From contig JBKGYM010000001.1 in NCBI GenBank assembly GCA_046546115.1, forward strand, positions 1 to 28,403: a stretch of DNA of 28,403 bases, in the 5' to 3' direction. Under the pieces are notes generated by a model that was not told where the DNA came from, searched no databases, and was given only the letters and a program-made list of their open reading frames with translations. Both the position numbers and the translations under genes were made by a program. Origin of the DNA: Candidatus Woesearchaeota archaeon (GTDB lineage Archaea > Nanobdellota > Nanobdellia > Woesearchaeales > CAZJJJ01). Shown one piece after another: positions 2,982 through 28,403 of this stretch. The first letter of the stretch is position 1, and each line of letters begins with the position of its first letter.

Positions 2982-3536
2982 ATGTTTTACAAGGTTGAAC
3001 TTAAGGACCACATAAGGATTCCGCCCGATTCGTTTGGGGTTGAGCTGGAAGATGCTATGGTGGCAAAGATAAAGGACAAGTATGATGGTTTCATATCTCG
3101 GGATCTAGGAATAGTCATTGATGTGCTGAGTGTCAAGAAGATTGGAGATGGCGTCTTGGTTCCTGGTGATGGGGCACAATACTATAAAGTGGAATTTGAG
3201 CTCATAACATATGAGCCTGAGATGCAGGAAGTGATGATGGGCACTGTGAGAGATATTGCAGATTTTGGAGTTTTCATGAATCTAGGGCCAATAGAAGGGA
3301 TGATACATGTATCACAGACAATGGATGATTTTGTGTCTTTCACGAAGGATAAAGTGCTCCAAGGTAAGGATAGCAAGAGAAGCCTTAAGATGGGAGATGT
3401 CTGCAGGGCAAGGATGATAGCCATCAGCTATAAAGATATCGCAAATCCTAAGTTAGGCCTCACAATGAGACAACCAGGCCTCGGAAAGCTAGAATGGATA
3501 GAAGAGGACCTCAAGAAAGATAAAAAGAAGAAATGA
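2982..3536 (+). CDS. rpo7: DNA-directed RNA polymerase subunit Rpo7 (E')
   Basis: HIRIPP N-terminal domain and S1 domain (FGVFMNLGPIEGMIHVSQ...LGLTMRQPGLGKLEWI). Confidence 0.97.
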   Translation: MFYKVELKDHIRIPPDSFGVELEDAMVAKIKDKYDGFISRDLGIVIDVLSVKKIGDGVLVPGDGAQYYKVEFELITYEPEMQEVMMGTVRDIADFGVFMNLGPIEGMIHVSQTMDDFVSFTKDKVLQGKDSKRSLKMGDVCRARMIAISYKDIANPKLGLTMRQPGLGKLEWIEEDLKKDKKKK

Positions 3537-3546
3537 GGAGACCAGA

Positions 3547-3738
3547 ATGGCAAAGAGAGAAGTCTGTAAGAAAAACAAGATGTTTGTTGATGATAAGAAT
3601 TTTCCGAAGAGTATGCAGGATGAAGCCAGGACTACAAACTGGCAAGGCAGGGTACACATTTTTGATCCAAAAAAATCTTTCATTGCCGAAAAGATTGCTG
3701 CAGACAGAAAAGGAGAATATGCAATAAAAGTCAAATGA
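3547..3738 (+). CDS. spt4: Transcription elongation factor Spt4 (RpoE''), zinc ligands mostly lost
   Basis: NWQGRVHIFDPKKSFIAEKI...GEYAIKVK C-terminus; directly after rpo7, with a GAGGAG SD. Confidence 0.9.
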   Translation: MAKREVCKKNKMFVDDKNFPKSMQDEARTTNWQGRVHIFDPKKSFIAEKIAADRKGEYAIKVK

Positions 3739-3747
3739 GGGATTAAT

Positions 3748-4062
3748 ATGAAGATAGAGATTCTAAAAGAAAAAGATATGCCTTTGCTCTCTAGAAAAAG
3801 ATACTCGTTGATTACAGAAAGCGATAAGCACACTCCTTCAAGAAAGGAATTATTGAAGAAAGTGGCTGAGAATCTTAAGACTAAACCTGAACTCGTGGTC
3901 ATAAAACATATATATACAAAATATGGATCAAAAGAAGTCAAGATAATAGCAAATGTCTACGATAATAAGAAAGACAAGGACCTTATTGAAAAAGAGTATC
4001 TTCTCAAGAAGAACTCACTCGAAGAAAAGAAGGATAATGAAGAAGCTACTGCTTCTGCTTGA
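3748..4062 (+). CDS. rps24e: 30S ribosomal protein eS24
   Basis: PLLSRKRY...TPSRKELL...VVIKHIYTKYG...ANVYD; conserved operon position. Confidence 0.93.
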   Translation: MKIEILKEKDMPLLSRKRYSLITESDKHTPSRKELLKKVAENLKTKPELVVIKHIYTKYGSKEVKIIANVYDNKKDKDLIEKEYLLKKNSLEEKKDNEEATASA

Positions 4063-4092
4063 TCCGCATAAGAAAGATGACAGGCTGATAAT

Positions 4093-4278
4093 ATGGCGAA
4101 AAGACAAGTGAAGAATAAGAGACCATCAAAGAGATGGGAAGCATATGAAGTGCAAGGAGATAAACTCGTAAGGAAAAAAAGGTATAGCCCAAAAGCAGAA
4201 GGGTGTTTCATGGCTGAACACAAAGACAGGTATACATGCGGTAAGACCGGCTATACAGAATTCAAACCAAAAGATTGA
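4093..4278 (+). CDS. rps27ae: 30S ribosomal protein eS31 (S27ae), zinc ligands mostly lost
   Basis: [11 protein letters not shown]...[19 protein letters not shown]; follows rps24e. Confidence 0.93.
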
Positions 4279-4307
4279 TTCTTACATTTTTTATATTCTG
4301 AAAGAGT

Positions 4308-4396
4308 CTAGTTTTAGATGCCCACAAGCACACCATTCTTGTGCTTACTCTTCGTGACTCTTGAAGGAAATTCTGCAATATCCTGCATAAAACTAG
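4308..4396. repeat. Imperfect inverted repeat enclosing internal hairpins, between convergent genes
   Basis: CTAGTTTTA(GA)TGC at 4308-4321 pairs with GCATAAAACTAG at 4385-4396; internal CACAAG/CTTGTG at 4323-4343. Confidence 0.55.
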
Positions 4397-4488
4397 CAGA
4401 GGTAATAGAAGAAGCAAAATTAATCAGAAAAATAAAACCTAAAGATCAATGTGAGAATTATCAATGTACCGATAAGAGAAATCTGAAA

Positions 4489-5379
4489 TCATTCTTCACC
4501 TGATTTCTGGAATACAAGAAGATCCTCTGTGGTCAGCTTCTGCCCTTTCTGTATCTTCTCTTCTACAGATATCTGCTTCTCTTTGATAGCAGATTCTTTT
4601 CTCTCTTCCTTCCTTTCTTTTGAATCGGCACGATTATCATCAAGCTTCTTTGAAATAGGTGTCAATTCTTTTAGTTTTTCTTTGAGCTTATTATTAAGGT
4701 CAGTGAAATCCTTTTTATGCTTAAGGAATGTCTTATAAGCCTCTTCTTCCTTTATCTTGAGTTCATCAATGCGTTTGGAGAACTCTATCATCTCTTCATG
4801 CTTCTCTTGACTCTTCTTTGCATTCTCACGTACTTTCTCATGTACCTGATCAGCTTCCTTCTTCAAGTCATCAATCTCCTTTGATAATTCATGTATCTTC
4901 TTTGATTGCTCAGAAGATTCATCTGACTCAGAAAGTTGTTTCTTGATCTCTTTCAGGCGCTTCATGAGCTTCTGCTCAGCATTGAAATTCATAGGTTCTG
5001 TCTCCAGTTTGAATTCGATTCCTTCCTTCTCCTTCTTAAGCGCTGAGAAATCTATTCGTTTCCCTGAAGAATCAGAATTCGATCTCTGGTTCTTCTGGAG
5101 CTCCTTTATCTCGGCAATCTTTTCGTTTATCTTCTCATTCATTTCAGTACGTTTCTTCTTTGATTCGCGTACATTATTCGTGAGCTTATCACGCATTGTC
5201 TTGAATTTCTTAATGTCAGAGATGAGTCGAACTATCTCTTTAGAGATGCTCTCCTTCTTAGAATACCATTCTTCCTTGACCTCATTGACCTTGTCTAAGT
5301 TAGACTTGATCTCAGAGATCTCAGATTTAATCTTCCGGGATTTGGAAACCAAATCCTTCAGCTCATCATCACTTAACAT
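4489..5379 (-). CDS. Archaeal coiled-coil protein (COG1340-like)
   Basis: Long K/E-rich heptads, EFKLETEPMNFNAEQKLMKRLKE, and the C-terminal EKIQKGQKLTTEDLLVFQ signature. ATG 5379 has a GGTGA SD. Confidence 0.82.
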   Translation of the reverse strand: MLSDDELKDLVSKSRKIKSEISEIKSNLDKVNEVKEEWYSKKESISKEIVRLISDIKKFKTMRDKLTNNVRESKKKRTEMNEKINEKIAEIKELQKNQRSNSDSSGKRIDFSALKKEKEGIEFKLETEPMNFNAEQKLMKRLKEIKKQLSESDESSEQSKKIHELSKEIDDLKKEADQVHEKVRENAKKSQEKHEEMIEFSKRIDELKIKEEEAYKTFLKHKKDFTDLNNKLKEKLKELTPISKKLDDNRADSKERKEERKESAIKEKQISVEEKIQKGQKLTTEDLLVFQKSGEE

Positions 5380-5407
5380 TGTCACCAATCAAACATCCTT
5401 TAAGGTT

Positions 5408-5438
5408 AAAGTAAAATAAAAGGTGGTACTAGGCCACC
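5408..5438 (-). terminator. Hairpin plus U-tract after the uL1-uL10-P1 operon
   Basis: Minus strand GGUGG-CCUAGUA-CCACC followed by UUUUAUUUUACUUU, about 20 nt after the L12 stop. Confidence 0.55.
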
Positions 5439-5458
5439 ATCCTCAAGCTTTATAAAGT

Positions 5459-5770
5459 TTACCCGAAAAGAGCTCCCAATCCAGCAGCTGCTTCCTCTTC
5501 CTTAGGTTCCTCTTCTTTCTTCTCTTCTTCCTTAGGAGCTTCTTCCTGCGCTTCTCCAGATGCTGGAGCAGCAGCGGAAGGCGCAGCAGCGACAGTAGCA
5601 GCCGTGTTGATAGCTTCTTCAATATCCACTCCATCAAGAGCAGCTATAAGCGCTTTTATCTTAGCGGAATCTGCTTCGATTCCAGCAGCATCGACTACTT
5701 TTTTTACAGCTTCTTCAGTTATCTCTTTACCAGCCTTGTAAAGCAACATTGCAGCATACACATATTCCAT
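5459..5770 (-). CDS. rpl12: 50S ribosomal protein P1/P2 (archaeal L12)
   Basis: [10 protein letters not shown]..., Ala-rich hinge, acidic tail ending [12 protein letters not shown]. Confidence 0.97.
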
Positions 5771-5802
5771 TTTAATACCTCCTGCTAATCAGTATAACAA
5801 AC

Positions 5803-6666
5803 TCATGCAGCGTCAGGGATCTTGGATGCTATTCCCTGTGCCTGTGATTGTGCTTTCGCGATTATCAAATCAATTGCCTCTCTTTCATAGGCGGGTGCAT
5901 TGACAGCAAGATTTCTTGTCTTACTATACGCCTGTGAAATGAGATGCGTAATATTCTCTTTAGTGGGATATCCAACAAACATGGAGAGATTGAATGCCTC
6001 TCCTGAAAATCTTGAAATCATATCAAGATACTCTTGCTCATCAACTGCCAGGATATCCTTGGTGAAAATTTCACCGTCCTCAAATGTAGCAGTCAGATCA
6101 AGCCCAATCTCCATTGGCTCTATCCCTAGCCGCCCAAGCAGAGATGCCAGCTTACCGCTGAAGACTTCACCTTCACGAATCACAGTAGAGTCCTCTTTGA
6201 CAATGACCTTACCATTTTCAATCCCTGCCTTGATACCTACCGAGCCCAATTCAGATATGATCGGCCCGGGCGCAAAACCAGTAGGACCTGCAGGCACCAC
6301 AACATCTTTTGGAGCGGTCTGACCACCTTTGGCGGGTGCTCCTGACTTATTCTTCTGAAGTGTCTTGTATAATGTGAAAGGGTTCTCTGATGTGAAAATC
6401 AATGCAGGCATCCCCTTCAGATGATCTTTTAAGCTCTCGATGCCTGGCTTTTTTGACTTGGCTTCCTCAAGAGCTATGCTGATCAATCTGCGTTTGCCCA
6501 TGAAGATCTCAACCTTTCCTCTCAACTGTTCTCTCATCTTTTGAAGTTGGGGCGTCGGAAGACCTTCCATATTCACACAGCCAACAATAGGATAACTTTC
6601 TATAAGACGAAGGTAATTATCCACAATCTTTTTCTTCTCTTTTGGTATCTTAGCCAATGGTGCCAT
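5803..6666 (-). CDS. rpl10: 50S ribosomal protein uL10 (P0)
   Basis: LQKMREQLRG, PAKGGQTAP.DVVVPAGPTGFAPGPIISELG; ATG 6666 preferred over TTG 6675. Confidence 0.97.
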   Translation of the reverse strand: MAPLAKIPKEKKKIVDNYLRLIESYPIVGCVNMEGLPTPQLQKMREQLRGKVEIFMGKRRLISIALEEAKSKKPGIESLKDHLKGMPALIFTSENPFTLYKTLQKNKSGAPAKGGQTAPKDVVVPAGPTGFAPGPIISELGSVGIKAGIENGKVIVKEDSTVIREGEVFSGKLASLLGRLGIEPMEIGLDLTATFEDGEIFTKDILAVDEQEYLDMISRFSGEAFNLSMFVGYPTKENITHLISQAYSKTRNLAVNAPAYEREAIDLIIAKAQSQAQGIASKIPDAA

Positions 6667-6733
6667 ATCAATCACGTTTCATCTGTCCAAAATCTCTGTT
6701 AAAATAAACCCTGCTTGAACCATATCATCTGAC

Positions 6734-7384
6734 TCAATATATTCTCTCAGGCCTGCTCATTGTCATCTTGACATATACTGAACGTATATTATTCTTCTCT
6801 AATGTCAGATGATGGAGCAACTGATCATAAACATAAGCAGCATTCTCGGCAACCTCATCCTCACTCATGCCTTCCGAACCTATGGGCACTTGCACAAGAG
6901 GCTGTGTCTTTGCGAAAATCCTTTGCATGTCCTGAAGCCGGTCATATAATGGTTTGAGGCTTCCTTTTGGAGGGACAACACAACCCGCCTTAGGATTGGG
7001 CATCTTTCCCCGGGGACCGAGGACTCTTCCGAAAACTTGAGCCACTTTTGGCATTATATTGGCCTGCGCGACGAAAAAGTCCATCTTCTCAGTGAGCGCT
7101 TTCAATGATTTCTTATCCTGCTGGAATTTCTCAAACTCATGAGCCTGAACCATTTCATCACAGACTTTTGCCTCTTCAGACAGCTCTGGACCCACTAAAG
7201 CACAAACCTTCCTTTTCCTGCCTGTATTGTGAGGCAGTTGAGCGTAAAAATCAACTTGATCCTCCGGCTTCTTCAAATTCAGGTTCTTGAGATTCACAAT
7301 CAGATCGATTCTCTGTGTGAAATTTCGCTTTTTAGAGTCAGCTTTCAGTCTCTTCACTGCTTCTTCAAATGTGTCTTTATCCAT
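6734..7384 (-). CDS. rpl1: 50S ribosomal protein uL1
   Basis: RNFTQRIDLIVNLK, GRVLGPRGKMP, YVKMTMS. Confidence 0.97.
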   Translation of the reverse strand: MDKDTFEEAVKRLKADSKKRNFTQRIDLIVNLKNLNLKKPEDQVDFYAQLPHNTGRKRKVCALVGPELSEEAKVCDEMVQAHEFEKFQQDKKSLKALTEKMDFFVAQANIMPKVAQVFGRVLGPRGKMPNPKAGCVVPPKGSLKPLYDRLQDMQRIFAKTQPLVQVPIGSEGMSEDEVAENAAYVYDQLLHHLTLEKNNIRSVYVKMTMSRPERIY

Positions 7385-7393
7385 AATATACCA

Positions 7394-7431
7394 CCCTTCT
7401 ACACGTAAGCGTAAGCCGCGTAGTCAACGGG
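7394..7431 (-). promoter_or_regulatory. Candidate structured 5' leader (autoregulatory site) of the uL1 operon
   Basis: CCC-GUUGA-CUACGCG-(11 nt loop)-CGUGUAG-AA-GGG; the GGG is the start of the SD-like GGGUGGU. A TATA at 7457-7464 places the whole element inside the transcript. Confidence 0.45.
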
Positions 7432-7456
7432 ACATCCTCGAGAAAACTTGAGTTTA

Positions 7457-7470
7457 TTTATAAACGTTTC
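7457..7470 (-). promoter_or_regulatory. BRE/TATA promoter of the uL1 operon
   Basis: Minus strand GAAACGTTTATAAA. Confidence 0.7.
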
Positions 7471-7482
7471 TATAATCCCATA

Positions 7483-8769
7483 TCAGTCAGGGCGTGAAAG
7501 CATCCAATCTATACTTGATAATGGAGCAGAGATATCATGGCCCGTAGAACTCTTTATCCTTTGTGAAGCAGCATAAGCATCCCTTATATTATTCTTTGTC
7601 TGCAGGTTGATATCCGGAAAGAACCAACCACAACTAGTAAAACTTAGCTGTGTAAGATATTCTGCCTCAAAGAGCTCTTTCAACTCATACATTGTGCTAT
7701 AAGTAACATCTTCTTTCAGATATGGCCTTATGAGATCCTCAAAACCCAGTTCGTCCATCAGTACGTGTATATAGTCGTCTCGGGCGACCCATGGATCATT
7801 GATGAATTTTCTGGAGGTTGTATAAAAGATATCATGCACCGTGTCCTCTTGCTCCTCAAGAGTCCTGAGAAGCTCTTCACGATATTGTTCACGACTCTTT
7901 GCACAATCACAGTCTCCGCTCCATCTTTTGAGTCCACCACAAAGACAGCTCCACGAACTCCGTTCAACAAGAGCCACCATCCCATGCGTTCCATATGTGT
8001 CAAGATATTGGTCTAATGTGATCATATCTTCTGTTTCAGGATGCTGTTCCACTGCCGTCGGAAAATAATCTGCCCAGAGATCTGCAAATTTATTATGATG
8101 ACCGAATGTTTCTGCATCGTACGCAAGAAGGATCAGAGCCTCCCCCTCACTTTCTCTTACCAGGACATCAAGAGCCACATCTGCATTATCAAGAAATGAA
8201 GTATCGCCAAAAGGAGTATCTGCGTTATGAGCGATCTCTCCGCTACGGGGATGGAAAAAGAAATAAGCGATAGAAAGACCGCTGCCCAGGTCTACATCAT
8301 AACATCCTGATGACACAGGAGAGCCATCTTCATTAATGGCTTGGCTTGGGGCACCTATAGTATACTCAATCCCTTCTTCCGCCAATGCCTTGCTTGTGCG
8401 GATATCCGTGGCAGTCTCAGGCAACCAGATTCCTCGAGGCTCCCTCCCAAAATATTTCTTGAAATGCTCTTTCCCCCACCTTATCTGTGTCTTCAGATCC
8501 TCATCATGCCTTATGAGAGGAAGTATCCTGTGATTATAGGGCTGAGCTATTGCTTGGCCATGGTCAGCGGAGATCATCCTATCAAGAGTGCCAGGATCAT
8601 TCTGTTCAAACCACTCTATCAGAGTAGGGCCGATATTGAAACTCACATGATCCATGACACCATTCTCAGAATTTGGTCTGTAACATTGTTCGTTGATTTT
8701 TGCCGCCCAGTAATCGTTACCGCGCGGCTGATAGAAATGCCAATGCTGTGACAGATGCCTCATACTCAT
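7483..8769 (-). CDS. Glycoside hydrolase family 57 (DUF3536-type)
   Basis: HWHFYQP, SFNIGPTLIEW, GIWLPETA (nucleophile Glu), AYDAETFGHH (acid/base Asp), SWSCLCGG.KRW, FTSCGWFF. Start uncertain among 8763, 8769 and 8778. Confidence 0.85.
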   Translation of the reverse strand: MSMRHLSQHWHFYQPRGNDYWAAKINEQCYRPNSENGVMDHVSFNIGPTLIEWFEQNDPGTLDRMISADHGQAIAQPYNHRILPLIRHDEDLKTQIRWGKEHFKKYFGREPRGIWLPETATDIRTSKALAEEGIEYTIGAPSQAINEDGSPVSSGCYDVDLGSGLSIAYFFFHPRSGEIAHNADTPFGDTSFLDNADVALDVLVRESEGEALILLAYDAETFGHHNKFADLWADYFPTAVEQHPETEDMITLDQYLDTYGTHGMVALVERSSWSCLCGGLKRWSGDCDCAKSREQYREELLRTLEEQEDTVHDIFYTTSRKFINDPWVARDDYIHVLMDELGFEDLIRPYLKEDVTYSTMYELKELFEAEYLTQLSFTSCGWFFPDINLQTKNNIRDAYAASQRIKSSTGHDISAPLSSIDWMLSRPD

Positions 8770-8821
8770 CCCAATCAAACCTTTCTATCCTCTTCAAAAA
8801 TTTTAATGTTGTGGAACAGCC

Positions 8822-9391
8822 TTATCCTTCATTGAACACTTTTGCACGGAATTTATAGAGTCTAGAATCTGGATCCAACCATGCAGCTTCATTCAGGCCG
8901 AACATAGTACAGGTATACTTAAGGAAATCCTCTGTCGACCAGGAACCTTTATCAGCAACCTGGGGTAGCATGAGCCCAGAGAAATTATTATTAGATAGGA
9001 TTATACCATCCTTTCCGACGATGATATTACTCAATACATCTTTCGGGCTTTCTTTCTGTAATGCTAATGGTTCTGTAAGCAATGAAATCTCTAATTCTAC
9101 CTTAGGCAATTCAGATTTCTGTAGAGGAGGATACCTTGGATCCTGGAATGCTGCAGACCTGGCGGCACTTATGAGAGATTCATAAAGAGGTTGTGATGTT
9201 CTCGCATAGCCCAGGCAACCTCGTAATCTGCCGAACTTCCTTAATGTGACAAACACACCAGCCGAGAAAGAAAATAATTGCTTGTGGTCCTGTGATATCA
9301 GGATCTCCTTGTCAGCGAAAGAAGAGGTGATTGACTCTCTTGCTAAAGCAACCAACATAGTGCCTTCTGAGGAACTCAAAACCCTTGACAT
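8822..9391 (-). CDS. AMMECR1-domain protein (TIGR00296-like)
   Basis: GVFVTL...LRGCLG, AAFQDPRYPPL, EISLLT, GLMLPQVA. Confidence 0.93.
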   Translation of the reverse strand: MSRVLSSSEGTMLVALARESITSSFADKEILISQDHKQLFSFSAGVFVTLRKFGRLRGCLGYARTSQPLYESLISAARSAAFQDPRYPPLQKSELPKVELEISLLTEPLALQKESPKDVLSNIIVGKDGIILSNNNFSGLMLPQVADKGSWSTEDFLKYTCTMFGLNEAAWLDPDSRLYKFRAKVFNEG

Positions 9392-9477
9392 ACATTCTTC
9401 TTCAGAAAATGCATTTAAAAATTTTTGCTGTCCTTTTTAGTAACAAAAAAAGGAAATTTTTCAAGATGAGGAAAAAA

Positions 9478-9747
9478 TCATATTGAAGAGAAAGCCTTCT
9501 CGAATTCTTTGAGCTCTTTCTTAGCTTCTTTCGCTGCAGAATCCAAGGCGGCAACAACATCAGTGCTTTCCGTCTCAGCCACAAACTTAGGTGAACCGAC
9601 CAACGGATGCTTGATGTTATAACCTGAAGTCTTCACACCCTTCTGATCCCAGAGCTTAACCCTTAACAGATTAGAGAATGTATGATCCTCTCCATTGATT
9701 TCGAAAACAATCCTGGTTTTTGATTTTTCTTTTGGTATGATTTCCAT
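9478..9747 (-). CDS. rpo11: DNA-directed RNA polymerase subunit Rpo11 (L)
   Basis: GEDHTFSNLLR...GYNIKHPL. Confidence 0.95.
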   Translation of the reverse strand: MEIIPKEKSKTRIVFEINGEDHTFSNLLRVKLWDQKGVKTSGYNIKHPLVGSPKFVAETESTDVVAALDSAAKEAKKELKEFEKAFSSI

Positions 9748-9802
9748 TTTCTCAAAAAAACAATGTTCTTTTTATAAAAGTTTCCTATGAACAGACACCT
9801 GA

Positions 9803-10123
9803 CTATTCATAATCACGCCAGACGTGCTTACATTTCTCACATTTGTAGAATTTTGTCTCGGATTCATCACTGGATCGAGTCTGTTCAAGCCAGAAGAAAG
9901 CCTTAGTGTGTGAACATTTAGGACAGACAATATCTACTAAAGGATTGGCTTCGACATCATTCTCCTCATCGATGACTTCAATCTCCTTCTTCTCCTGGAA
10001 AGATTCCTTCAATGAATCATCCTGATTAACAGGGGCAGTATACCCACAAGAACAAGAATAAACATACTTACCTGATGACTTTTTTGGCATCAGTATCGAA
10101 CCGCACTTTGGACAAAATTTCAT
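9803..10123 (-). CDS. tfs: Transcription factor S (TFS)
   Basis: Two zinc ribbons (CPKC..CSC and CPKC..CEKC) and the QTRSSDE catalytic acidic hairpin. Confidence 0.95.
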   Translation of the reverse strand: MKFCPKCGSILMPKKSSGKYVYSCSCGYTAPVNQDDSLKESFQEKKEIEVIDEENDVEANPLVDIVCPKCSHTKAFFWLEQTRSSDESETKFYKCEKCKHVWRDYE

Positions 10124-10153
10124 TTTTGATACCTCGCGTCATATTGATGATGT

Positions 10154-10774
10154 TTAGATAAAAAGACCGATAAGATTGAAAAACCAGATTTTCACATAAC
10201 CAAGGAAAGGTATGCGGAAGATTGATTTTCCGATGATATCCTCCTCTTTGATTTCAGATTCAAACTCATAGCTGACCGGGTTATTATCCCCCTTTGTCTT
10301 AAAAGTGGTTGAACTGCCATTTATATTCTTTTCTATGACTCTATGTATTATAGGATTCCTTTCAGTGCTTCCAAACACTATTATGTCACCAATCTCTACA
10401 TCCTCTGGTGACACACCCCTTAATACTTTTATATCACCCGTATTGAAACCATTACGAAAAGGAAATCCCTCGAAATCATCTTCTTGTATAGAATACTGAG
10501 CATAGAAATCTGCCTGAGTCATCCGGTTTCCGTCCACTACTGCAGGGGACTCCCACCATTCATCAAAGCCGCCAGGATGTTCCATGCTTCCCGAGACAAC
10601 CGCTACAATAGGGAAAGGTGTCGCGAGGACCAAACCAAGAAGTGGATAGACAATAAATCTGATCAAGACAAAGGCGAGTGCAACATTTACCACCCAGCTA
10701 AGGAATGAATCCTCATTGAGGAATTTGATGAATCTCTTATACTGTCTCTTGAAATAACGGAAAGATTTTGTCAT
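10154..10774 (-). CDS. Signal peptidase I (archaeal Sec11 type)
   Basis: TM anchor, VVSGSMEH (catalytic Ser), IIHRV (His), TKGDNN. ATG 10774 lies 30 nt from a TTTTTTAA box. Confidence 0.92.
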   Translation of the reverse strand: MTKSFRYFKRQYKRFIKFLNEDSFLSWVVNVALAFVLIRFIVYPLLGLVLATPFPIVAVVSGSMEHPGGFDEWWESPAVVDGNRMTQADFYAQYSIQEDDFEGFPFRNGFNTGDIKVLRGVSPEDVEIGDIIVFGSTERNPIIHRVIEKNINGSSTTFKTKGDNNPVSYEFESEIKEEDIIGKSIFRIPFLGYVKIWFFNLIGLFI

Positions 10775-10848
10775 CTTCTGAAACAACCAGGGTCAGTTAA
10801 AAAATGTTTTGCTTTTCCTGCTTTACATGGCCCATCCTTGTCATGGCT

Positions 10849-10862
10849 GAAAAGTTTTTAAA
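10849..10862 (+). promoter_or_regulatory. BRE/TATA promoter of nmd3
   Basis: GAAAAGTTTTTAAA; first T at 10855, 30 nt before ATG 10885. Confidence 0.65.
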
Positions 10863-10884
10863 ATGCACACACATTCATTGGAAC

Positions 10885-11853
10885 ATGAAGGGCAAGGAGA
10901 GAGAGAGGATGATGAAGAAATTCTATGACGAGATTGATCAGCCCAGACTCCTCCCTGATGATATGAAAGAGATTAGCATAAGATACTGCGAGAGTTCTAT
11001 GACTTACAGGCTGAATAACAAATGGAAAGAGTACGAGGACATTTCTGAAGTGCTGGATGATACTGTGAATAATGCCTTGAAAAAAAAGGTAGATAAAGAT
11101 ACTGAGATTGAAGTTGAGCCGGTCATGAAAGGTGAAAAAATCAAAGAACTCATCATAACCGCCAAGAAGAAAGGAGTGACAGAACAGAAAAAAGTCAAAG
11201 CCATAGTAGACAGGACGATGAACCCCGCATACTCAAAAAGATTCTCTAATTATCTAGAGGGCACCTTACAGTTAAGGAATGTTGATGAGGGGATGTTCAC
11301 TTTCCTACAGGATCAGCTTTCCATTGCAGAGAAGAGGTTTTCACATGTGATTGATCTCAGGGAGAAAGATAAAGCCATAGATATTGATATGACTTCTCAA
11401 AAAGAGATAGAGAAGATAGCAAAAAACATGCAGAAAGAATTCGGTGGCGAACTAAAGATGGATTATAAATTGCATACCCGTGACAAACAGACCCAGAAAG
11501 AACTCCATAGGCTCACTGCCACAGTGATCCTTCCAGATGTCAAGAAAGGCGACCACATCGAATCTGGAGACCAGGTATACAAGGTTGTCGCGATCATGGG
11601 GAATAAGATGAAAGTATCGGATCTTGATACAGGAAAGAATAAGATGATGTCCCTTAAGGATGAGCATAAGATCCTGAAGAAAGAGAAGGCCATTGTTGTA
11701 CAGATTAATCCAGACATAAAAGTTATAGACCCTGAGACATACCAGATGACCAAAATCATCCTAAAAGACAAGAAGAATGCTAAAAAGATACGGATGAACC
11801 AGAAACTGGATGCTGTGAGGTCAAAAAAACGACTTTACTCTGTTAAGAAATGA
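10885..11853 (+). CDS. nmd3: NMD3 family ribosome biogenesis protein, zinc ligands mostly lost
   Basis: NNKW, NYLEGTLQLR, KEFGGE...KLHTRDKQTQKELHRLT motifs, plus C-terminal SH3/OB regions (DPETYQ). Start set at 10885 from promoter spacing. Confidence 0.85.
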   Translation: MKGKERERMMKKFYDEIDQPRLLPDDMKEISIRYCESSMTYRLNNKWKEYEDISEVLDDTVNNALKKKVDKDTEIEVEPVMKGEKIKELIITAKKKGVTEQKKVKAIVDRTMNPAYSKRFSNYLEGTLQLRNVDEGMFTFLQDQLSIAEKRFSHVIDLREKDKAIDIDMTSQKEIEKIAKNMQKEFGGELKMDYKLHTRDKQTQKELHRLTATVILPDVKKGDHIESGDQVYKVVAIMGNKMKVSDLDTGKNKMMSLKDEHKILKKEKAIVVQINPDIKVIDPETYQMTKIILKDKKNAKKIRMNQKLDAVRSKKRLYSVKK

Positions 11854-11868
11854 TCAGTATCTCCGCTC

Positions 11869-14800
11869 TCATGTCTTCACATGTAATCCTTTATACTCTT
11901 CATCAATTATGTCATGGCATCTCTTCAACATGGTGGCTCTCTCATCCCAACCGATGACAGCATCGGTAACATCATCCATCCACTCCCAGGTACCATGCAA
12001 GTTCTCATTCTTAGTGCCATACAACACTGCGACTGTGCCTCTCAAAGAACTCACTTTACCAATCTGGTCAACATAAGGGTTCACTGTCTGTTTACCTGCG
12101 TCCATTGCATAATAAACATTCCTTTCAGCACCTGAGCCATGATGATGCCTGTCTGCCGCAAGAAAGCGTGTGGCTTTTGATCTTTGCCCCTGTGCTTGTG
12201 TTGAGATATTACTGATTTCGGTCCTGCCAGATTTCATCTTATGAGCCAGATAAGCATACATATCATGGCCTTCTTCCGTTGGTACCTTCACAAGATCTGA
12301 ACTGAATGATTGGCCTCTGCCTGCTTCAGAGATGTGGAGCTTCCCTTCATCCTTATAAGAAATATCAAACATCCCTCCAAGAATGTCCGCTTCGTTCTCA
12401 CCATACTGCTTTGTTGTATTGAGATGGTTCCCGCTGGAAAGATAGACCTCTGTGCCATTATCCATCAACTCTTCAAGCGCTGGCTGTCTGTATCTCTTAA
12501 ACAGTTCCTTCTGGTGTTCCAAAGTGGGCACAGATTTAGCTAAAGCGTTCTCAAGCACATAGCTATCAATATGATCATGGATCTCCTCATCACGATAACC
12601 TGCTTTCTTGAGGCGTTCCCTCAAGATCTTGACATGCATATTCATGGTTATATCGTCCAGCGAACGGTTCTCACGGGCAGGATCATATTTCGTGCCCAAT
12701 GACTGATTACCATTAAGATATTCAGAACCGAAATGCATAGATATATTTTCCAGACCAAGCCTCTGTTCCGCTACTGATTGAGTAGCGTCAATAGCATCAT
12801 GATTTGATGGCCTGCCAGGATGATTATAGACACCATAATGATTATCATTATCCATCAGGATACTCTTGACCTCTGGAACAATCTCTTCATACAGGGCATT
12901 CAATCTTCTCTTATGCTTGTCTATACTCTTCTGGGTACGTGCTCTCTCTATCTTCGATTCCAATTCCCTTACCTGGGCAGAATACTTCTCAGCAATCTCT
13001 TCATAGAACAGGTCATTGAAGAAAATCCATTTCTCGCTTCCGTCTGGTTCCATCACCTGTAAAACATTGCCCGTTGTATCTCCACCTTTCTCGATACGCT
13101 TCAATTCCCATGTTCCTGTGTTTCCACGATTACCCATCTCTTTCAGGATATCAGTATCATGCCGGGTAGGGAGCTTGAGATAATTGGTCATCGGAATTGA
13201 TTCCCTGTATTCGCCTTTCACGACAGTCGGTGCCACCGTCGCTTTCTTGTTCCTGTTATAGCCATCGGCACCCCATCCTGTGAAGACCACATCTGAAAAT
13301 GCTAATGATCCTCTCTTCTTGAATTCCTCGATTGTCCTAGGGCGTTCTGAACCAATCAATATAGATTTCTTCACTGAATTTTCATGCTTGCCGATCAGTT
13401 CCGCGAGACTATTCTTAAGAGGTTCATTGGATCTTTGACGGTTGGTCCTAGGTACAGATGTGATGATCGTGCCATAGAGCTTTTTGTCAGGATATGAGTT
13501 ATAGCCATATATCTGTGCTGGATCGGGCACATATACCGAAATGTCACGGTCTGTATGAAGTTTTATATTCTTCTCCTCGCCTAAGAGAGATTTCAATTCT
13601 TTTGAGATCATGTCTTCATAGTATTTCTTATATCGGTTTTTCTGGGCCATCTCGATAGCTTTTGAGACCGTCGGATTTATATGGACCTGTTTAGTAAACC
13701 AAGCATGTCCAGATCTTTTTTCAGATTCTCTTGCAAGCTTCAGCTGCTCATATTCATCTATCGTATCCTTGGTATGGTCATACTTCCTGTCCACACTATC
13801 TCTTTTCTTAGTATCGGCCTCAAGTCTGGCGATGATGTCATCAAGATTTCTTATCTTGCTGTTATTGAGCCGCTTCTCCACCAATTCCCAGAAAAGTTCA
13901 TCAAATTCTCGTGAATTCATTGTTCCACGGGATGTCTTTTTCAGGTTTTTCTTGAATTCCTTCAATCCTTTTGAATTCTTATCAAAATATTCTTGCCCCA
14001 GGATCTCTCTTATCTTCTTCCCGGAAAGTGCATCTTCAATAGCTTCCATCCCTTCTGGCGACGGAATACCATAACGCTCATAATCCAGAGAACCTTCTTC
14101 ATACCTATTCCGAAGATCAAGATAAGAATCCTCGAGTCTCTCATCGATGGATACTGCAGTATTCTCTCGCAGCGATCTTATCTTAAGTTCTCCTTCTTTC
14201 TCATACAGTCCTGGAAGTTTCTCCTCTGCCTTGTTAGCCTCATTCTCAGACTTTCTCCATGCTTCTACAAGAAGCGTCTCTATCTCACTTAGATTGAAAT
14301 CATCATTATAACTATAATAGATGTGTATTGGGACTTCGTTAGGGACATTCTCAATCAGCGGCTTAAGCTCTTTCGCTACACTCGCCTTGGCCTCTTCAAA
14401 AGAATCTATGGTATTTATGACATATTTCCTTAGATTATTTATCTCTTTGGGACTCAGATCATCCCCGCTTGAACGACCCAATAATTCCTTGATGTCATTA
14501 GTCTCATCATAGAATATCTCATTGAATTCCTTGTCATCCAAGTTCTCATACTCCCGATTCTTTCCTGTGAGAAGCGCCCTGTTATTTTTGAGCTTACCAT
14601 AGAAAGATACCATCTGTGGCATGATGCCTCCTTGGAGATGGACACTGTTAAGCATCTCATCAAGCCCCATTGCCTTCCTCACCAGTCTTTCGCCTTCGAA
14701 TGCGCTCGTATTGGTGTATAAGGTTCCAAGACCCAGCTCAGAAGAATAAAGATGGTAACGGGGAACCCTATAATCTGAAATCTCCTCATCCCATCTTAGC

Positions 14801-15195
14801 TTATGCTGATTCGCGAGAGCCAGGACCAATGCCTGCTCCTCATCAAGAGTACCATTATTAGAAGGTAACTTCTCTGGTAAGTCCCATAAATCTTTGATCT
14901 CATTCAAGCGTTCGGAGATATATTCTTTGGATTTCCTTGTCCTTTTTGCAAGCTCAGAGAAGTCAGGGATCTTCTCATCAGAATAGGGATGCCATAATAT
15001 CGCTGAATTTGCAGGCAACTCCTTCTCAAGTCTCTTAAGGAGGCGCCTATGTTCTTTGTTCAATCCAAGACGAGGTGCGAGTACTGATGGAAATCCAGCA
15101 TCTGGCCCGTCTTGCTTTTCTTCATCAACAACTTCATTCCGGACATTCTCTTGTGGAGTTAACCTATCTTCCAAAGTCGTCCCAATAATCTTCAT
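11869..15195 (-). CDS. Large hypothetical protein: putative N-terminal HTH, then two calcineurin-like metallophosphoesterase-type domains with a helical insert
   Basis: 1108 aa with a GGGTGA SD. C-terminal motifs DNDNHYG, FGSE, SGNH, AHK and ADRHH resemble phosphoesterase motifs I-V. N-terminal equivalents SSELGLG, QGGIMP, SYNDD and TGWG are degenerate. The CDS is secure; the domain call is by eye. Confidence 0.6.
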   Translation of the reverse strand: MKIIGTTLEDRLTPQENVRNEVVDEEKQDGPDAGFPSVLAPRLGLNKEHRRLLKRLEKELPANSAILWHPYSDEKIPDFSELAKRTRKSKEYISERLNEIKDLWDLPEKLPSNNGTLDEEQALVLALANQHKLRWDEEISDYRVPRYHLYSSELGLGTLYTNTSAFEGERLVRKAMGLDEMLNSVHLQGGIMPQMVSFYGKLKNNRALLTGKNREYENLDDKEFNEIFYDETNDIKELLGRSSGDDLSPKEINNLRKYVINTIDSFEEAKASVAKELKPLIENVPNEVPIHIYYSYNDDFNLSEIETLLVEAWRKSENEANKAEEKLPGLYEKEGELKIRSLRENTAVSIDERLEDSYLDLRNRYEEGSLDYERYGIPSPEGMEAIEDALSGKKIREILGQEYFDKNSKGLKEFKKNLKKTSRGTMNSREFDELFWELVEKRLNNSKIRNLDDIIARLEADTKKRDSVDRKYDHTKDTIDEYEQLKLARESEKRSGHAWFTKQVHINPTVSKAIEMAQKNRYKKYYEDMISKELKSLLGEEKNIKLHTDRDISVYVPDPAQIYGYNSYPDKKLYGTIITSVPRTNRQRSNEPLKNSLAELIGKHENSVKKSILIGSERPRTIEEFKKRGSLAFSDVVFTGWGADGYNRNKKATVAPTVVKGEYRESIPMTNYLKLPTRHDTDILKEMGNRGNTGTWELKRIEKGGDTTGNVLQVMEPDGSEKWIFFNDLFYEEIAEKYSAQVRELESKIERARTQKSIDKHKRRLNALYEEIVPEVKSILMDNDNHYGVYNHPGRPSNHDAIDATQSVAEQRLGLENISMHFGSEYLNGNQSLGTKYDPARENRSLDDITMNMHVKILRERLKKAGYRDEEIHDHIDSYVLENALAKSVPTLEHQKELFKRYRQPALEELMDNGTEVYLSSGNHLNTTKQYGENEADILGGMFDISYKDEGKLHISEAGRGQSFSSDLVKVPTEEGHDMYAYLAHKMKSGRTEISNISTQAQGQRSKATRFLAADRHHHGSGAERNVYYAMDAGKQTVNPYVDQIGKVSSLRGTVAVLYGTKNENLHGTWEWMDDVTDAVIGWDERATMLKRCHDIIDEEYKGLHVKT

Positions 15196-27492: not shown

Positions 27493-28403
27493 ATGGTCAC
27501 TAAAGAATTGAAAGACAGACTGACAAAGCAGCAGTACGGGTTTACTGGAGAGCATTCTGCGGTAAAGATATGCAACTGGACAAAAAGATCCCTGAAAGAT
27601 GACGGCGTCTGTTATAAGGAAAAGTTCTATGGGATAAAGAGTCATCGATGCTGCCAGATCACCCCCAGCGTGGGCTTCTGCCAGAACAGATGTATATTCT
27701 GTTGGAGAGAGATTGACCTGAATGAAGGGACTGGAGAGATCAGCGAGACTGCCACGAATATCAAACTTGACGAACCTGAGGACATCATCGAGGAATCAAT
27801 AAAACAGCACAGGATGCTTCTGACAGGTTTTGGCGGTAACGAGAAAGTGAACATGGAAAAATTCAGAGAAGCTCAAGACCCCAACCAATTTGCGATATCG
27901 TTGACGGGAGAGCCTACACTCTATCCTAGACTGAACGAGTTGATAAAATCGTTGAAGCGGAGGGATTCGAGTGTTTTTGTCGTATCCAATGGACTATGTC
28001 CTGAAGCCATAAGAAACATGGAACCTCCAACACAATTGTATGTATCATTAGAAGCTTCTGATGAGGAAGACTTCCTGAAGATTGTGAGGCCAGGGATTTC
28101 AGGAGCATGGGAGAAGCTCATGCAATCTTTGGATGCATTGCGCTCGATAGAGTGTAAGACTGCTCTGAGAATAACTGTGATCAAAGGCATAAATATGAAA
28201 GATCCGGAAAAATTTGGAGAACTCATAAAGAAGGCATCTCCCACATATGTGGAAGTGAAAGCATACATGCATGTAGGAGCATCACGCGAAAGGCTAAAGA
28301 AAGAGAACATGCCCAGCCATGAGGAGATTAGAGATTTTAGCGCAAAGATTGCCAGAAGCTGCGGTTATGATATAAAAGATGAACAGGAAGAATCTCTCGT
28401 TGT
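27493..28403 (+). CDS. taw1: 4-demethylwyosine synthase Taw1/TYW1 (radical SAM), 3'-truncated by the window end; not in the ORF track
   Basis: Manual translation: HSAVKICNWT, CYKEKFYGIKSHRC, CQNRCIFCWR (CxxxCxxC), AISLTGEPTLY, VEVKAYMHVG; open to the window edge. Confidence 0.95.
   Translation, partial: MVTKELKDRLTKQQYGFTGEHSAVKICNWTKRSLKDDGVCYKEKFYGIKSHRCCQITPSVGFCQNRCIFCWREIDLNEGTGEISETATNIKLDEPEDIIEESIKQHRMLLTGFGGNEKVNMEKFREAQDPNQFAISLTGEPTLYPRLNELIKSLKRRDSSVFVVSNGLCPEAIRNMEPPTQLYVSLEASDEEDFLKIVRPGISGAWEKLMQSLDALRSIECKTALRITVIKGINMKDPEKFGELIKKASPTYVEVKAYMHVGASRERLKKENMPSHEEIRDFSAKIARSCGYDIKDEQEESLV

What the first reader, a model, noticed from the sequence alone, without database searches (positions are those of the whole stretch)
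3547..11853. Coordinated loss of structural zinc sites across Spt4, eS31 and NMD3, with TFS spared
Seen: three unrelated information-processing proteins each retain only about one canonical Cys. TFS keeps both ribbons and Taw1 keeps its Fe-S cysteines, so this is not general Cys avoidance. Known: C-minus zinc-free ribosomal protein paralogues are a zinc-sparing strategy in bacteria. Inference: a lineage-level, constitutive zinc-sparing programme in an archaeon, possibly reflecting sulfidic, alkaline or otherwise zinc-poor habitats.
Basis: partly seen in the sequence, partly recalled or inferred. Interest (0 to 1): 0.65.

Follow-up and report, generated by a model that had tools for sequence, protein, structure and literature searches.

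The report
Genus-wide loss of structural zinc sites
A genus of tiny uncultured archaea has permanently replaced the zinc-holding cysteines in about half of the zinc sites checked in its transcription and translation machinery, including sites in RNA polymerase that most relatives in its order keep, which makes it a natural test of how much structural zinc a cell needs.

Summary
Spt4 (3547-3738), eS31 (4093-4278) and NMD3 (real start about 10885) each keep one canonical Cys. TFS and Taw1 keep theirs.

It is the visible part of something larger. In this genome and its five sister species, 12 of 22 structural zinc sites checked have lost their ligands. The others are eL43, uS14, eL24, Nop10, aIF2-gamma, RNA polymerase A' site 1 (CKTC..CPGHFGH reads CKTD..SPGYFGY), and the B and D subunit sites. 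Ten are intact: eL37, eS27, eL42, RpoP, RpoN, A' site 2, both TFS ribbons, TFB and aIF2-beta.

- Each gene is single-copy, with no zinc-bearing paralogue.
- The four zinc-free genes tested are under strong purifying selection.
- Losses came in two stages. Spt4, NMD3 site 2, RpoB, RpoD and the first A' change are shared with the sister genus. At least seven more fall on the genus stem, 1.4% of the tree's length.
- Four to five other lineages of the order show milder losses.
- Cysteine content is normal and Fe-S motifs and many other zinc proteins remain.

"Lineage-level and constitutive" is supported. Zinc scarcity as the cause is plausible (about 0.4) but untested, and habitat data could not be reached. 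Earlier notes of this scan report zinc-free RNA polymerase in Saccharibacteria and zinc-free eL42 elsewhere.

The parts
3547..3738 (+). Spt4 (RpoE''), zinc-free: CKKN..FPKS, 1 of 4 ligand Cys
   Evidence: Pfam PF06093. 39-sequence alignment A1. AlphaFold pLDDT 85. Best PDB matches are M. jannaschii Spt4 4zn1_B and 3lpe_B, TM 0.70-0.75.
4093..4278 (+). Ribosomal protein eS31 (S27ae), zinc-free: SPKAEG..CGKTGYT, 1 of 4 ligand Cys
   Evidence: Pfam PF01599. All 35 genomes read outside the genus keep CxxC..CxxC. Only four zinc-free clusters appear among the seven hits returned from 5.8 billion proteins.
10885..11853 (+). NMD3, both C4 sites lost (one Cys left, in RYCESS). The ORF runs from 10804 but the conserved start is M at 10885.
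   Evidence: Pfam PF04981 from profile position 31. Genus alignment of N-termini. 1 of 8 conserved Cys columns kept.
9803..10123 (-). TFS (RpoM), both zinc ribbons intact: internal control
   Evidence: Pfam PF02150 and PF01096. 8 of 8 conserved Cys columns kept.
27493..28401 (+). Taw1 (radical SAM, wyosine formation; runs off the window end), CxxxCxxC kept: internal control
   Evidence: Pfam PF04055 and PF08608. CQNRCIFC at residue 63.
2982..3536 (+). Rpo7 (RpoE'), first gene of the rpoE'-spt4-S24e-S27ae cluster
   Evidence: Pfam SHS2_Rpb7-N plus S1. Its one conserved Cys is kept.
3748..4062 (+). Ribosomal protein eS24, lying between spt4 and eS31
   Evidence: Pfam PF01282.

Best explanation
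Shown: in this genus of small-genome (DPANN-type) archaea, 12 of 22 structural Cys4/Cys3His zinc sites checked in the gene-expression core have been converted, permanently and in single-copy genes, into metal-free versions of the same folds.
- Lost: Spt4, NMD3 (two sites), eS31, eL43, uS14, eL24, Nop10, aIF2-gamma, RpoA' site 1, RpoB and RpoD.
- Replacements are mostly Ser, Thr, Ala, Asp or Tyr, and usually one Cys survives.
- Kept: eL37, eS27, eL42, RpoP, RpoN, RpoA' site 2, TFS (two ribbons), TFB and aIF2-beta.
- Order of events: a first set (Spt4, NMD3 site 2, RpoB, RpoD, and C-to-D at the second ligand of RpoA' site 1) was lost before the split from the sister genus. At least seven further sites went on the short stem of the genus. 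The state then stayed frozen in all six species.

Inferred: the proteins still work, as zinc-independent folds.

Inferred cause, which I commit to at about 0.4: an episode or lasting condition of low usable zinc in the genus ancestor. This selected for function without zinc at every site where the fold could tolerate it, whatever the protein's abundance. Sites where zinc is structurally indispensable were kept. This is a fixed, genome-wide counterpart of the bacterial zinc-free ribosomal-protein strategy, not a regulated switch.
For: Extent:
- eL43 reads SPFC..CTKT, uS14 CRFSGR..SRQAF, and eL24 CSFSG..SSSKS.
- Nop10 reads TKSGEY..CPWTG.
- aIF2-gamma has 0 Cys in its knuckle. RpoA' site 1 reads C,D,S,Y. 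RpoB has 0 of 4. RpoD has 0 Cys against CSCKGxGCAxCQ in outgroups.

Constitutive: one hit per family in G000 and in the 98%-complete G002. tblastn with zinc-bearing homologues finds only the zinc-free locus, and the next hit has E >= 0.18.

Functional: among the species pS is 0.68-0.94 (saturated) and pN 0.03-0.31 for eL24, uS14, eL43 and Nop10. The Spt4 model matches solved Spt4 structures.

Burst:
- The sister genus G006 keeps eS31, eL43, uS14, eL24, Nop10 and aIF2-gamma.
- The genus stem is 0.22 of a total tree length of 16.1, and is not long against a median terminal branch of 0.36.
- Outside the genus these six sites show only two full losses in the lineages read (G025 uS14, G035 eL24).

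Specific to zinc sites: Cys content is normal. The radical-SAM CxxxCxxC motif and ferredoxin-like CxxCxxC genes are kept.

The affected complexes are physically unrelated (both ribosomal subunits, aIF2, H/ACA RNP, a 60S assembly factor, RNA polymerase). The only shared feature is the Cys-zinc site.

Four of the seven ribosomal zinc sites checked are gone. From general knowledge of bacteria, the ribosome is a major zinc pool.
Against: - No habitat or metal data could be obtained.
- G000 has two ZIP genes, a CDF efflux gene and a P1B ATPase, as zinc-retaining relatives do.
- The only Fur-family regulator found sits next to a peroxiredoxin-like gene, so it looks PerR-like rather than Zur-like.
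- The earliest sites lost (RNA polymerase, Spt4, NMD3) are not the most abundant zinc users.
- The same sites are lost, apparently independently, in other lineages of the order, and RpoA' site 1 in unrelated Rpb1-like proteins. This fits intrinsic dispensability plus drift.
- Ten core sites and many other zinc proteins remain (DnaJ, ZPR1, MetRS knuckle, thymidine kinase, the Fur-like protein).
- The sign tests for correlated loss are underpowered.
Confidence: 0.4

Rival explanations
1. Neutral or nearly neutral erosion. In ultra-small, probably host-dependent archaea with small populations, zinc ligands of intrinsically dispensable ribbons are lost by drift. Once one Cys is gone the rest decay. 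The genus stem simply included a severe bottleneck. No zinc-related selection is involved.
For: - The same sites are lost repeatedly elsewhere in the order. On the best tree RpoB zinc needs at least 6 changes, or 5 if G037 is sister to the own family, which the AU test allows. RpoA' site 1 needs 5 and Spt4 needs 3.
- G035 lost eL24 and G025 lost uS14.
- NMD3 is cut down to its C-terminal part in about 13 of 40 genomes.
- From my own knowledge, eukaryotic eL24 and Nop10 are zinc-free, so some of these ribbons tolerate loss.
- 23 of 150 distant Rpb1-like cluster representatives carry the same C-D-x-Y series.
- There is no distinctive zinc-transport signature.
Against: - At least seven sites in unrelated complexes fell on one branch that is 1.4% of tree length and not accelerated in RpoB/RpoA'.
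- No further loss or reversal occurred at any of the 10 retained sites in six species whose synonymous sites are saturated. Continuing erosion should give differences among species.
- The residual single Cys are conserved.
Confidence: 0.33
2. Avoidance of oxidation-sensitive zinc-thiolate sites. The lineage moved into an oxidant-exposed niche, where Cys4-zinc sites are damaged by peroxide or similar oxidants. Selection then replaced them with redox-inert residues.
For: - A Fur-family regulator with an intact CxxC..CxxC site lies directly upstream of a peroxiredoxin-like gene, a PerR-like arrangement (G000:C3:7688-8765).
- Replacements are mostly redox-inert Ser, Thr, Ala, Asp or Tyr.
Against: - Fe-S motifs, which are more oxygen-sensitive, are kept (Taw1 CxxxCxxC and several ferredoxin-like CxxCxxC genes).
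- DnaJ, a classic redox-sensitive zinc protein, keeps all four CxxCxGxG motifs.
- Overall Cys content is normal.
- One exposed Cys is usually retained at each lost site.
Confidence: 0.15
3. Artefact: the zinc-free genes are pseudogenes, assembly or binning errors, or a minor paralogue set. The true zinc-bearing genes lie in the missing 17% of the genome.
For: G000 is 83% complete, in 112 contigs.
Against: - Identical ligand states occur in six independently assembled species, including one 98% complete.
- The genes sit in the usual conserved operons (rpoE'-spt4-S24e-S27ae, eL43-rpoP, rpoB-rpoA).
- Frames are intact and under strong purifying selection.
- No second copy was found.
Confidence: 0.02

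Closest known systems
Bacterial C-minus (zinc-free) ribosomal protein paralogues under Zur control (L31, L33, L36, S14, S18; Makarova et al. 2001 'Two C or not two C'; reviewed in PMC11672702 and PMC9825181)
   Same: Cys ligands of zinc ribbons in ribosomal proteins are replaced while the fold and ribosomal role are kept. uS14 is affected in both.
   Different: - Here there is no C+/C- pair and no switch. The single copy is zinc-free, so the state is constitutive.
- It is in an archaeon.
- It affects archaeal/eukaryotic-type proteins (eS31, eL43, eL24).
- It reaches well beyond the ribosome, into RNA polymerase, Spt4, aIF2-gamma, Nop10 and NMD3.
- No Zur-type regulation is evident.
Eukaryotic eL24 and Nop10, which lack the zinc ribbon cysteines of their archaeal counterparts (from my own knowledge of the yeast sequences and structures; not tested here)
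   Same: The same two proteins are zinc-free with the fold retained. The eL24 pattern here, CSFSG..SSSKS, resembles the yeast pattern as I recall it.
   Different: This happened inside an archaeal order whose other members keep the zinc sites. It coincides with losses at sites that eukaryotes keep (eS31, eL43, uS14, Spt4, NMD3, and the Rpb1, Rpb2 and Rpb3 sites).
Zinc-free RNA polymerase beta-prime in Saccharibacteria
   Same: The N-terminal clamp zinc site of the largest RNA polymerase subunit is lost in a clade of ultra-small, probably episymbiotic organisms, while the domain stays conserved.
   Different: Bacterial rather than archaeal. That note gives no evidence of parallel losses in ribosomal proteins or translation factors.
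Canonical archaeal Spt4 (M. jannaschii 3lpe/4zn1, P. furiosus 3p8b/3qqc)
   Same: Same length. The Spt5-binding C-terminal half is conserved (GEYAIKV). The predicted fold matches at TM 0.70-0.75.
   Different: Three of the four zinc ligands are replaced (C,N,F,S).

Membership tests
Spt4/RpoE'' (Pfam PF06093) | Sequence match over the family cut-off | tested here: met
   33.5 bits against a cut-off of 25, but only profile positions 19-77.
Spt4/RpoE'' (Pfam PF06093) | C4 zinc ribbon (CxxC..CPxC) | tested here: not met
   Reads CKKN..FPKS. 30 of the 38 same-order genomes with a readable Spt4 keep all four Cys.
Spt4/RpoE'' (Pfam PF06093) | Spt4 fold and the usual position after rpoE' | tested here: met
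   AlphaFold pLDDT 85. Top PDB hits are archaeal Spt4. The gene follows Rpo7.
Ribosomal protein eS31/S27ae (PF01599) | Sequence match, and the C4 ribbon CPxCG..CGxCG | tested here: inconclusive
   Family match is met (52.4 bits against 22.3). Zinc ligands are not met (SPKA..CGKT).
NMD3 (PF04981) | Sequence match, and two N-terminal C4 sites | tested here: inconclusive
   Family match is met from profile position 31 (68.3 bits). Only 1 of 8 conserved Cys is kept.
Bacterial-type zinc-sparing C+/C- paralogue system | A zinc-bearing and a zinc-free copy of the same ribosomal protein in one genome | tested here: not met
   One copy per family in G000 and G002. tblastn with zinc-bearing homologues finds no second locus.
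Bacterial-type zinc-sparing C+/C- paralogue system | Zinc-responsive (Zur) regulation of the zinc-free copy | not testable with these tools
   The only Fur-family gene found lies next to a peroxiredoxin-like ORF. There are no expression data.
Bacterial-type zinc-sparing C+/C- paralogue system | Ligand cysteines replaced while the rest of the protein is conserved | tested here: met
   eS31, eL43, uS14 and eL24. Purifying selection confirmed for eL43, uS14 and eL24.
Multisubunit RNA polymerase largest subunit (Rpo1N/A') | Clamp zinc site 1 (equivalent to yeast Rpb1 C67, C70, C77, H80; residue numbering from my own knowledge): CxTC..CPGHFGH | tested here: not met
   Reads CKTDGRKLKDSPGYFGY in all five genus genomes read. 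30 of 32 genomes outside the loss lineages keep C-C-C-H. Site 2 is intact.

The most novel reading that the evidence does not exclude
Ultra-small symbiotic prokaryotes repeatedly strip structural zinc from their transcription and translation machinery as an adaptation to a zinc-poor or zinc-unreliable intracellular state. This would cover both DPANN archaea, as here, and CPR bacteria, as an earlier scan note suggests. This genus would be the most advanced case known: an RNA polymerase lacking three of its six zinc sites checked, and a ribosome lacking four of seven. The recurrent C-D-x-Y replacement at RpoA' site 1 would be a defined structural way to run the clamp without zinc.
Probability: 0.3. 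Interest if true: 0.78.

Novelty: new variant of a known kind. Interest (0 to 1): 0.68.

Why it matters
Structural zinc sites in RNA polymerase (CPGHFGH), Spt4, eS31, eL43, uS14, aIF2-gamma and NMD3 are usually treated as near-invariant features of archaeal and eukaryotic gene expression.

- A lineage that does without a dozen of them, while close relatives keep them, provides matched natural pairs. These can be used to measure what each zinc contributes to stability, assembly and fidelity.
- It shows which sites are dispensable and which are never lost.
- It gives a defined replacement pathway, C-C-C-H to C-D-C-H to C-D-S-Y.
- If the cause is zinc limitation, it extends the bacterial zinc-sparing idea to archaea, and from a regulated paralogue switch to a fixed remodelling of the proteome. 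It would also suggest a genomic marker, a conserved-Cys retention index, for metal limitation in uncultured microbes.
- These degenerate motifs lower profile scores. Spt4 and NMD3 here match only part of their Pfam models.

Tried and rejected
- General Cys avoidance: rejected. Cys is 1.13% in long ORFs of G000, and the own genus (0.96-1.38%) lies within the outgroup range of 0.8-1.7%. 51 crude genes still carry two or more CxxC.
- Zinc-bearing paralogues elsewhere in the genome: none found.
- Pseudogenes or assembly artefact: rejected (six species, intact frames, pN far below pS).
- A generally fast-evolving long branch: not seen in RpoB'+RpoA' (stem 0.22 against a median terminal branch of 0.36).
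- One shared ancestral loss for all lineages lacking RpoB zinc: the single-clade tree is 101 log-likelihood units worse, p-AU 0.049, which is only borderline. G037 as sister of the own family is not rejected (p 0.535), so stage-1 losses may be shared with it.
- Correlated loss of the RpoA' and RpoB sites: 3 of 4 independent pairs go the same way and none the opposite way, but the sign test cannot reach significance.
- Zinc-transport signature: ZIP and CDF are present and ZnuA is absent in all five genomes tested, so this is uninformative.
Record titles give no habitat.
- Literature: three full-text searches found no report of lineage-wide zinc-site loss in archaeal or DPANN gene-expression proteins. 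This library lacks most subscription journals, so absence is weak evidence.
- eL40 was not found in any of five genomes.
- RpoP was missed by the Pfam search but found by hand next to eL43, and it is intact.

Full report
**What is in the window**

The finding spans a conserved archaeal gene-expression neighbourhood. Pfam identifies these genes:
- Rpo7/RpoE' (2982-3536)
- Spt4 (3547-3738)
- eS24 (3748-4062)
- eS31/S27ae (4093-4278)
- a DUF7121 coiled-coil protein, then ORFs at 5459-7384 on the minus strand that read as ribosomal stalk proteins P1 and P0 and uL1 (from the translations; not scanned against Pfam)
- a GH57 enzyme and AMMECR1
- Rpo11/RpoL (9478-9747)
- TFS (9803-10123, minus strand)
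- NMD3 (ORF 10804-11853)

Taw1 lies at the window's end (27493-28401). The window is contig C1 of a 0.97-Mb, 112-contig, 83%-complete genome (G000). That genome belongs to an order of 0.6-2.1-Mb genomes with at least 35 families. This is DPANN-like, as an earlier follow-up on this window also concluded.

**Checking the observation**

I compared the proteins with 35-40 genomes of the same order.
- Spt4 reads CKKNKMFVDDKNFPKS, where 30 of the 38 relatives with a readable Spt4 have CxxC..CPxC.
- eS31 reads [15 protein letters not shown], where all 35 genomes read outside the genus have C(P/I/L)KC..CGxC.
- NMD3 keeps one (RYCESS) of eight Cys columns conserved in outgroups.
- The upstream MFCFSC of the long ORF is not conserved in sister species. 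Their proteins begin M..(K/R)ER.RMMK.FY, so the real start is most likely 10885.
- TFS keeps 8 of 8 conserved Cys, and Taw1 keeps CQNRCIFC.

**How far it goes**

*Intact in the genus:*
- eL37, eS27 and eL42
- RpoN and aIF2-beta
- RpoP, found by hand next to eL43
- the TFB ribbon
- RpoA' zinc site 2

*Degenerate in the genus:*

| Protein or site | Reads | Canonical (outgroups) |
|---|---|---|
| eL43 | SPFC..CTKT | CPYC..CxKC |
| uS14 | CRFSGR..SRQAF | CxxCGR..CRQCF |
| eL24 | CSFSG..SSSKS | CSFCG..CSSKC |
| Nop10 | TKSGEY..CPWTG | CPKCGKY..CYDC |
| aIF2-gamma knuckle | no Cys | Cys knuckle present |
| RpoA' site 1 | CKTDGRKLKDSPGYFGY | CKTCG..CxGHFGY |
| RpoB C-terminal site | SEKSG..DLMYG | CEKCG..CxxCG |
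| RpoD | no Cys | CSCKGxGCAxCQ |

TFE-alpha is ambiguous (CC..CPEC). eL40 was not found in any of five genomes.

Tally for the genus: 12 sites in 11 proteins lost and 10 sites kept.

**Real, single-copy and functional**

- Every family gives one hit in G000 and in the 98%-complete G002.
- tblastn of zinc-bearing homologues from G006 and G011 against the whole G000 assembly finds only the zinc-free locus. The next hit has E >= 0.18.
- Among the species, synonymous sites are saturated (pS 0.68-0.94) while pN is 0.03-0.31 for eL24, uS14, eL43 and Nop10. The zinc-free state is therefore old and under purifying selection.
- An AlphaFold model of the window's Spt4 has pLDDT 85. It superposes on solved archaeal Spt4 structures (4zn1_B, 3lpe_B, 3p8b_A, 3qqc_E; TM 0.68-0.78). 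The caveat is that its alignment contains zinc-bearing homologues.

**Order of events**

G006 shares the following with the genus:
- the Spt4 loss
- a degenerate NMD3 site 2 (CSHS)
- the RpoB and RpoD losses
- C-to-D at the second ligand of RpoA' site 1, giving C,D,C,H

G006 keeps eS31, eL43, uS14, eL24, Nop10, aIF2-gamma and NMD3 site 1.

At least seven sites were therefore lost on the stem of the genus. In a maximum-likelihood tree of RpoB'+RpoA' (zinc columns removed, 1421 columns, 39 genomes), that stem is 0.22 substitutions per site. This is 1.4% of the total tree length of 16.1 and shorter than the median terminal branch of 0.36. Outside the genus, the six later-lost sites show only two full losses in the lineages read: uS14 in G025 and eL24 in G035. 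After the burst, none of the ten retained sites changed in any of the six species.

**The wider order**

Milder versions occur elsewhere.
- The RpoB zinc site is lost in G025, G032, G034, G035 and G037.
- RpoA' site 1 is degenerate in all of these except G034. G025 has the same C,D,S,Y as this genus.
- Spt4 is zinc-free in G025 and G037.
- On the best tree this needs 6, 5 and 3 changes respectively.
- G037 may be sister to the own family. The constrained tree is slightly better, p-AU 0.535.
- Forcing all lineages without RpoB zinc into one clade costs 101 log-likelihood units, but p-AU is only 0.049. Independent recurrence is likely, not proven.
- NMD3 is reduced to its C-terminal 150-250 residues, with no zinc domain at all, in about 13 of 40 genomes.
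- A crude retention index over conserved Cys columns gives:
  - own genus: 0.56-0.81
  - G035: 0.70
  - G025, G032, G034, G037 and G006: 0.81-0.85
  - the other 29 genomes: 0.91-1.00
- That set of loci is biased, because the loci were chosen for zinc proteins.

**A recurrent replacement series at RpoA' site 1**

I searched the N-terminal 330 residues of RpoA' against 1.84 billion cluster representatives. Among the best 150:
- 105 have C-C-C-H
- 23 have C-D-(C/S/T)-(Y/H/F)

All 23 are Rpb1-like proteins from metagenome contigs. One is a EukProt entry from Andalucia godoyi annotated as RNA polymerase II subunit 1. This is the same series seen here: G006 has C-D-C-H, G037 has C-D-S-H, and the genus and G025 have C-D-S-Y. 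It suggests a preferred path in which Asp replaces the second Cys first.

**What drives it**

General Cys avoidance is excluded.
- Cys is about 1.0-1.1% of the crude proteome.
- 51 crude genes carry two or more CxxC.
- Ferredoxin-like motifs remain, as do DnaJ's four CxxCxGxG, ZPR1, an HVO_2753-like finger, thymidine kinase, the MetRS knuckle and a Fur-family protein.

The burst-then-stasis pattern, across physically unrelated complexes whose only common feature is a Cys-zinc site, argues for a lineage-level regime rather than steady protein-by-protein decay.

Low usable zinc is the simplest such regime. It would select for zinc independence in any protein whose fold tolerates it, whatever its abundance. 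That would explain why rare factors (NMD3, Nop10) are affected as well as ribosomal proteins. I give this about 0.4.

Against it:
- There are no habitat data.
- ZIP, CDF and P1B-ATPase genes look the same as in zinc-retaining relatives.
- The only Fur-family gene sits next to a peroxiredoxin-like ORF, so it looks PerR-like, not Zur-like.
- The recurrence of the same losses elsewhere fits intrinsic dispensability plus drift, possibly with a bottleneck (about 0.33).
- Avoidance of oxidation-prone zinc thiolates is a third option (about 0.15). It is weakened by the retention of Fe-S motifs and of DnaJ's zinc fingers.

**Comparison with what is known**

The closest concept is the bacterial set of zinc-free (C-minus) ribosomal protein paralogues under Zur. 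Here one defining feature was tested and not met: there is no paired zinc-bearing copy, so no switch. Zur regulation could not be tested. This works like that strategy at most in outcome and is not a member of it.

Zinc-free eL24 and Nop10 are, from my own knowledge, the eukaryotic norm. Earlier notes of this scan report a zinc-free RNA polymerase beta-prime in Saccharibacteria and zinc-free eL42 in other archaeal genomes. I did not check those notes.

I found no paper describing a lineage-wide loss across ribosome, RNA polymerase, initiation factor, H/ACA RNP and NMD3 in an archaeon. The library is incomplete, so this is weak evidence of novelty.

**Verdict**

- Observation: confirmed and considerably extended.
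- Interpretation: partly supported. "Lineage-level and constitutive" holds, "coordinated" holds only in two stages, and the zinc-scarcity motive and habitat remain untested.
- Novelty: a new variant of a known kind.
- Interest: 0.68.

Noticed in passing
L040-L069 and the rows (NMD3 loci of G007, G010, G014, G015, G019, G021, G022, G024, G029, G032, G033, G036, G040): In about 13 of 40 genomes of the order, NMD3 is reduced to a C-terminal 145-250-residue protein starting near YFEGxLQLRN. It has no zinc-binding N-terminal domain at all.
   Followed up: partly
P0058-P0154 (scripts 86-90); P0059 = EukProt Andalucia godoyi ANDGO_01232: 23 of the 150 best Rpb1/RpoA' cluster representatives carry C-D-(C/S/T)-(Y/H/F) instead of C-C-C-H at the clamp zinc site. 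This is the same replacement series as in this archaeal lineage. Most are long Rpb1-like proteins on metagenome contigs of unknown origin.
   Followed up: partly
G000:C3:7688-8765 (L271 and the next ORF): A Fur-family regulator with an intact CxxC..CxxC site is followed, with overlap, by a peroxiredoxin-like ORF. This is a PerR-like arrangement in a DPANN-type genome.
   Followed up: no
G000:C8:15834-16250 (L281, uL13): Three Cys columns conserved in four outgroup uL13 proteins read S,C,S in the genus and in G006. uL13 is not known to me as a zinc protein.
   Followed up: no
G000:C18:10664-11161 (TFE-alpha-like, L176): The first knuckle of the TFE-alpha ribbon is CPNMC in G006 but a contracted CC in the genus, with CPEC kept. 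It is unclear whether zinc is still bound.
   Followed up: no
window 10804-10884: An in-frame upstream extension of NMD3 encodes MFCFSC..KCTHIH, which mimics a zinc knuckle. It is not conserved in any sister species, so it is probably not translated.
   Followed up: yes
G025:C1:6439-6615 and G025:C10:8110-8286 (L240, L244): Two eL24 hits with the same score in one genome that has 5% contamination. This could be a duplication or a binning duplicate.
   Followed up: no
There is no eL43 hit in G001 or G002 (98% complete), although the rest of the genus has it. There is no eL40 hit in any of G000, G002, G004, G006 or G037.
   Followed up: no
L184, L185: Public records of two congeners are titled 'uncultured Methanosarcinales archaeon isolate binchicken_co32_...'. 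This label does not fit 1-Mb DPANN-like genomes and is probably a taxonomy-mapping artefact.
   Followed up: no
window 22112-23356 and 11869-15195: A 414-aa Mre11-like metallophosphoesterase lies in the same window as the 1108-aa tandem phosphoesterase already described by an earlier follow-up.
   Followed up: no
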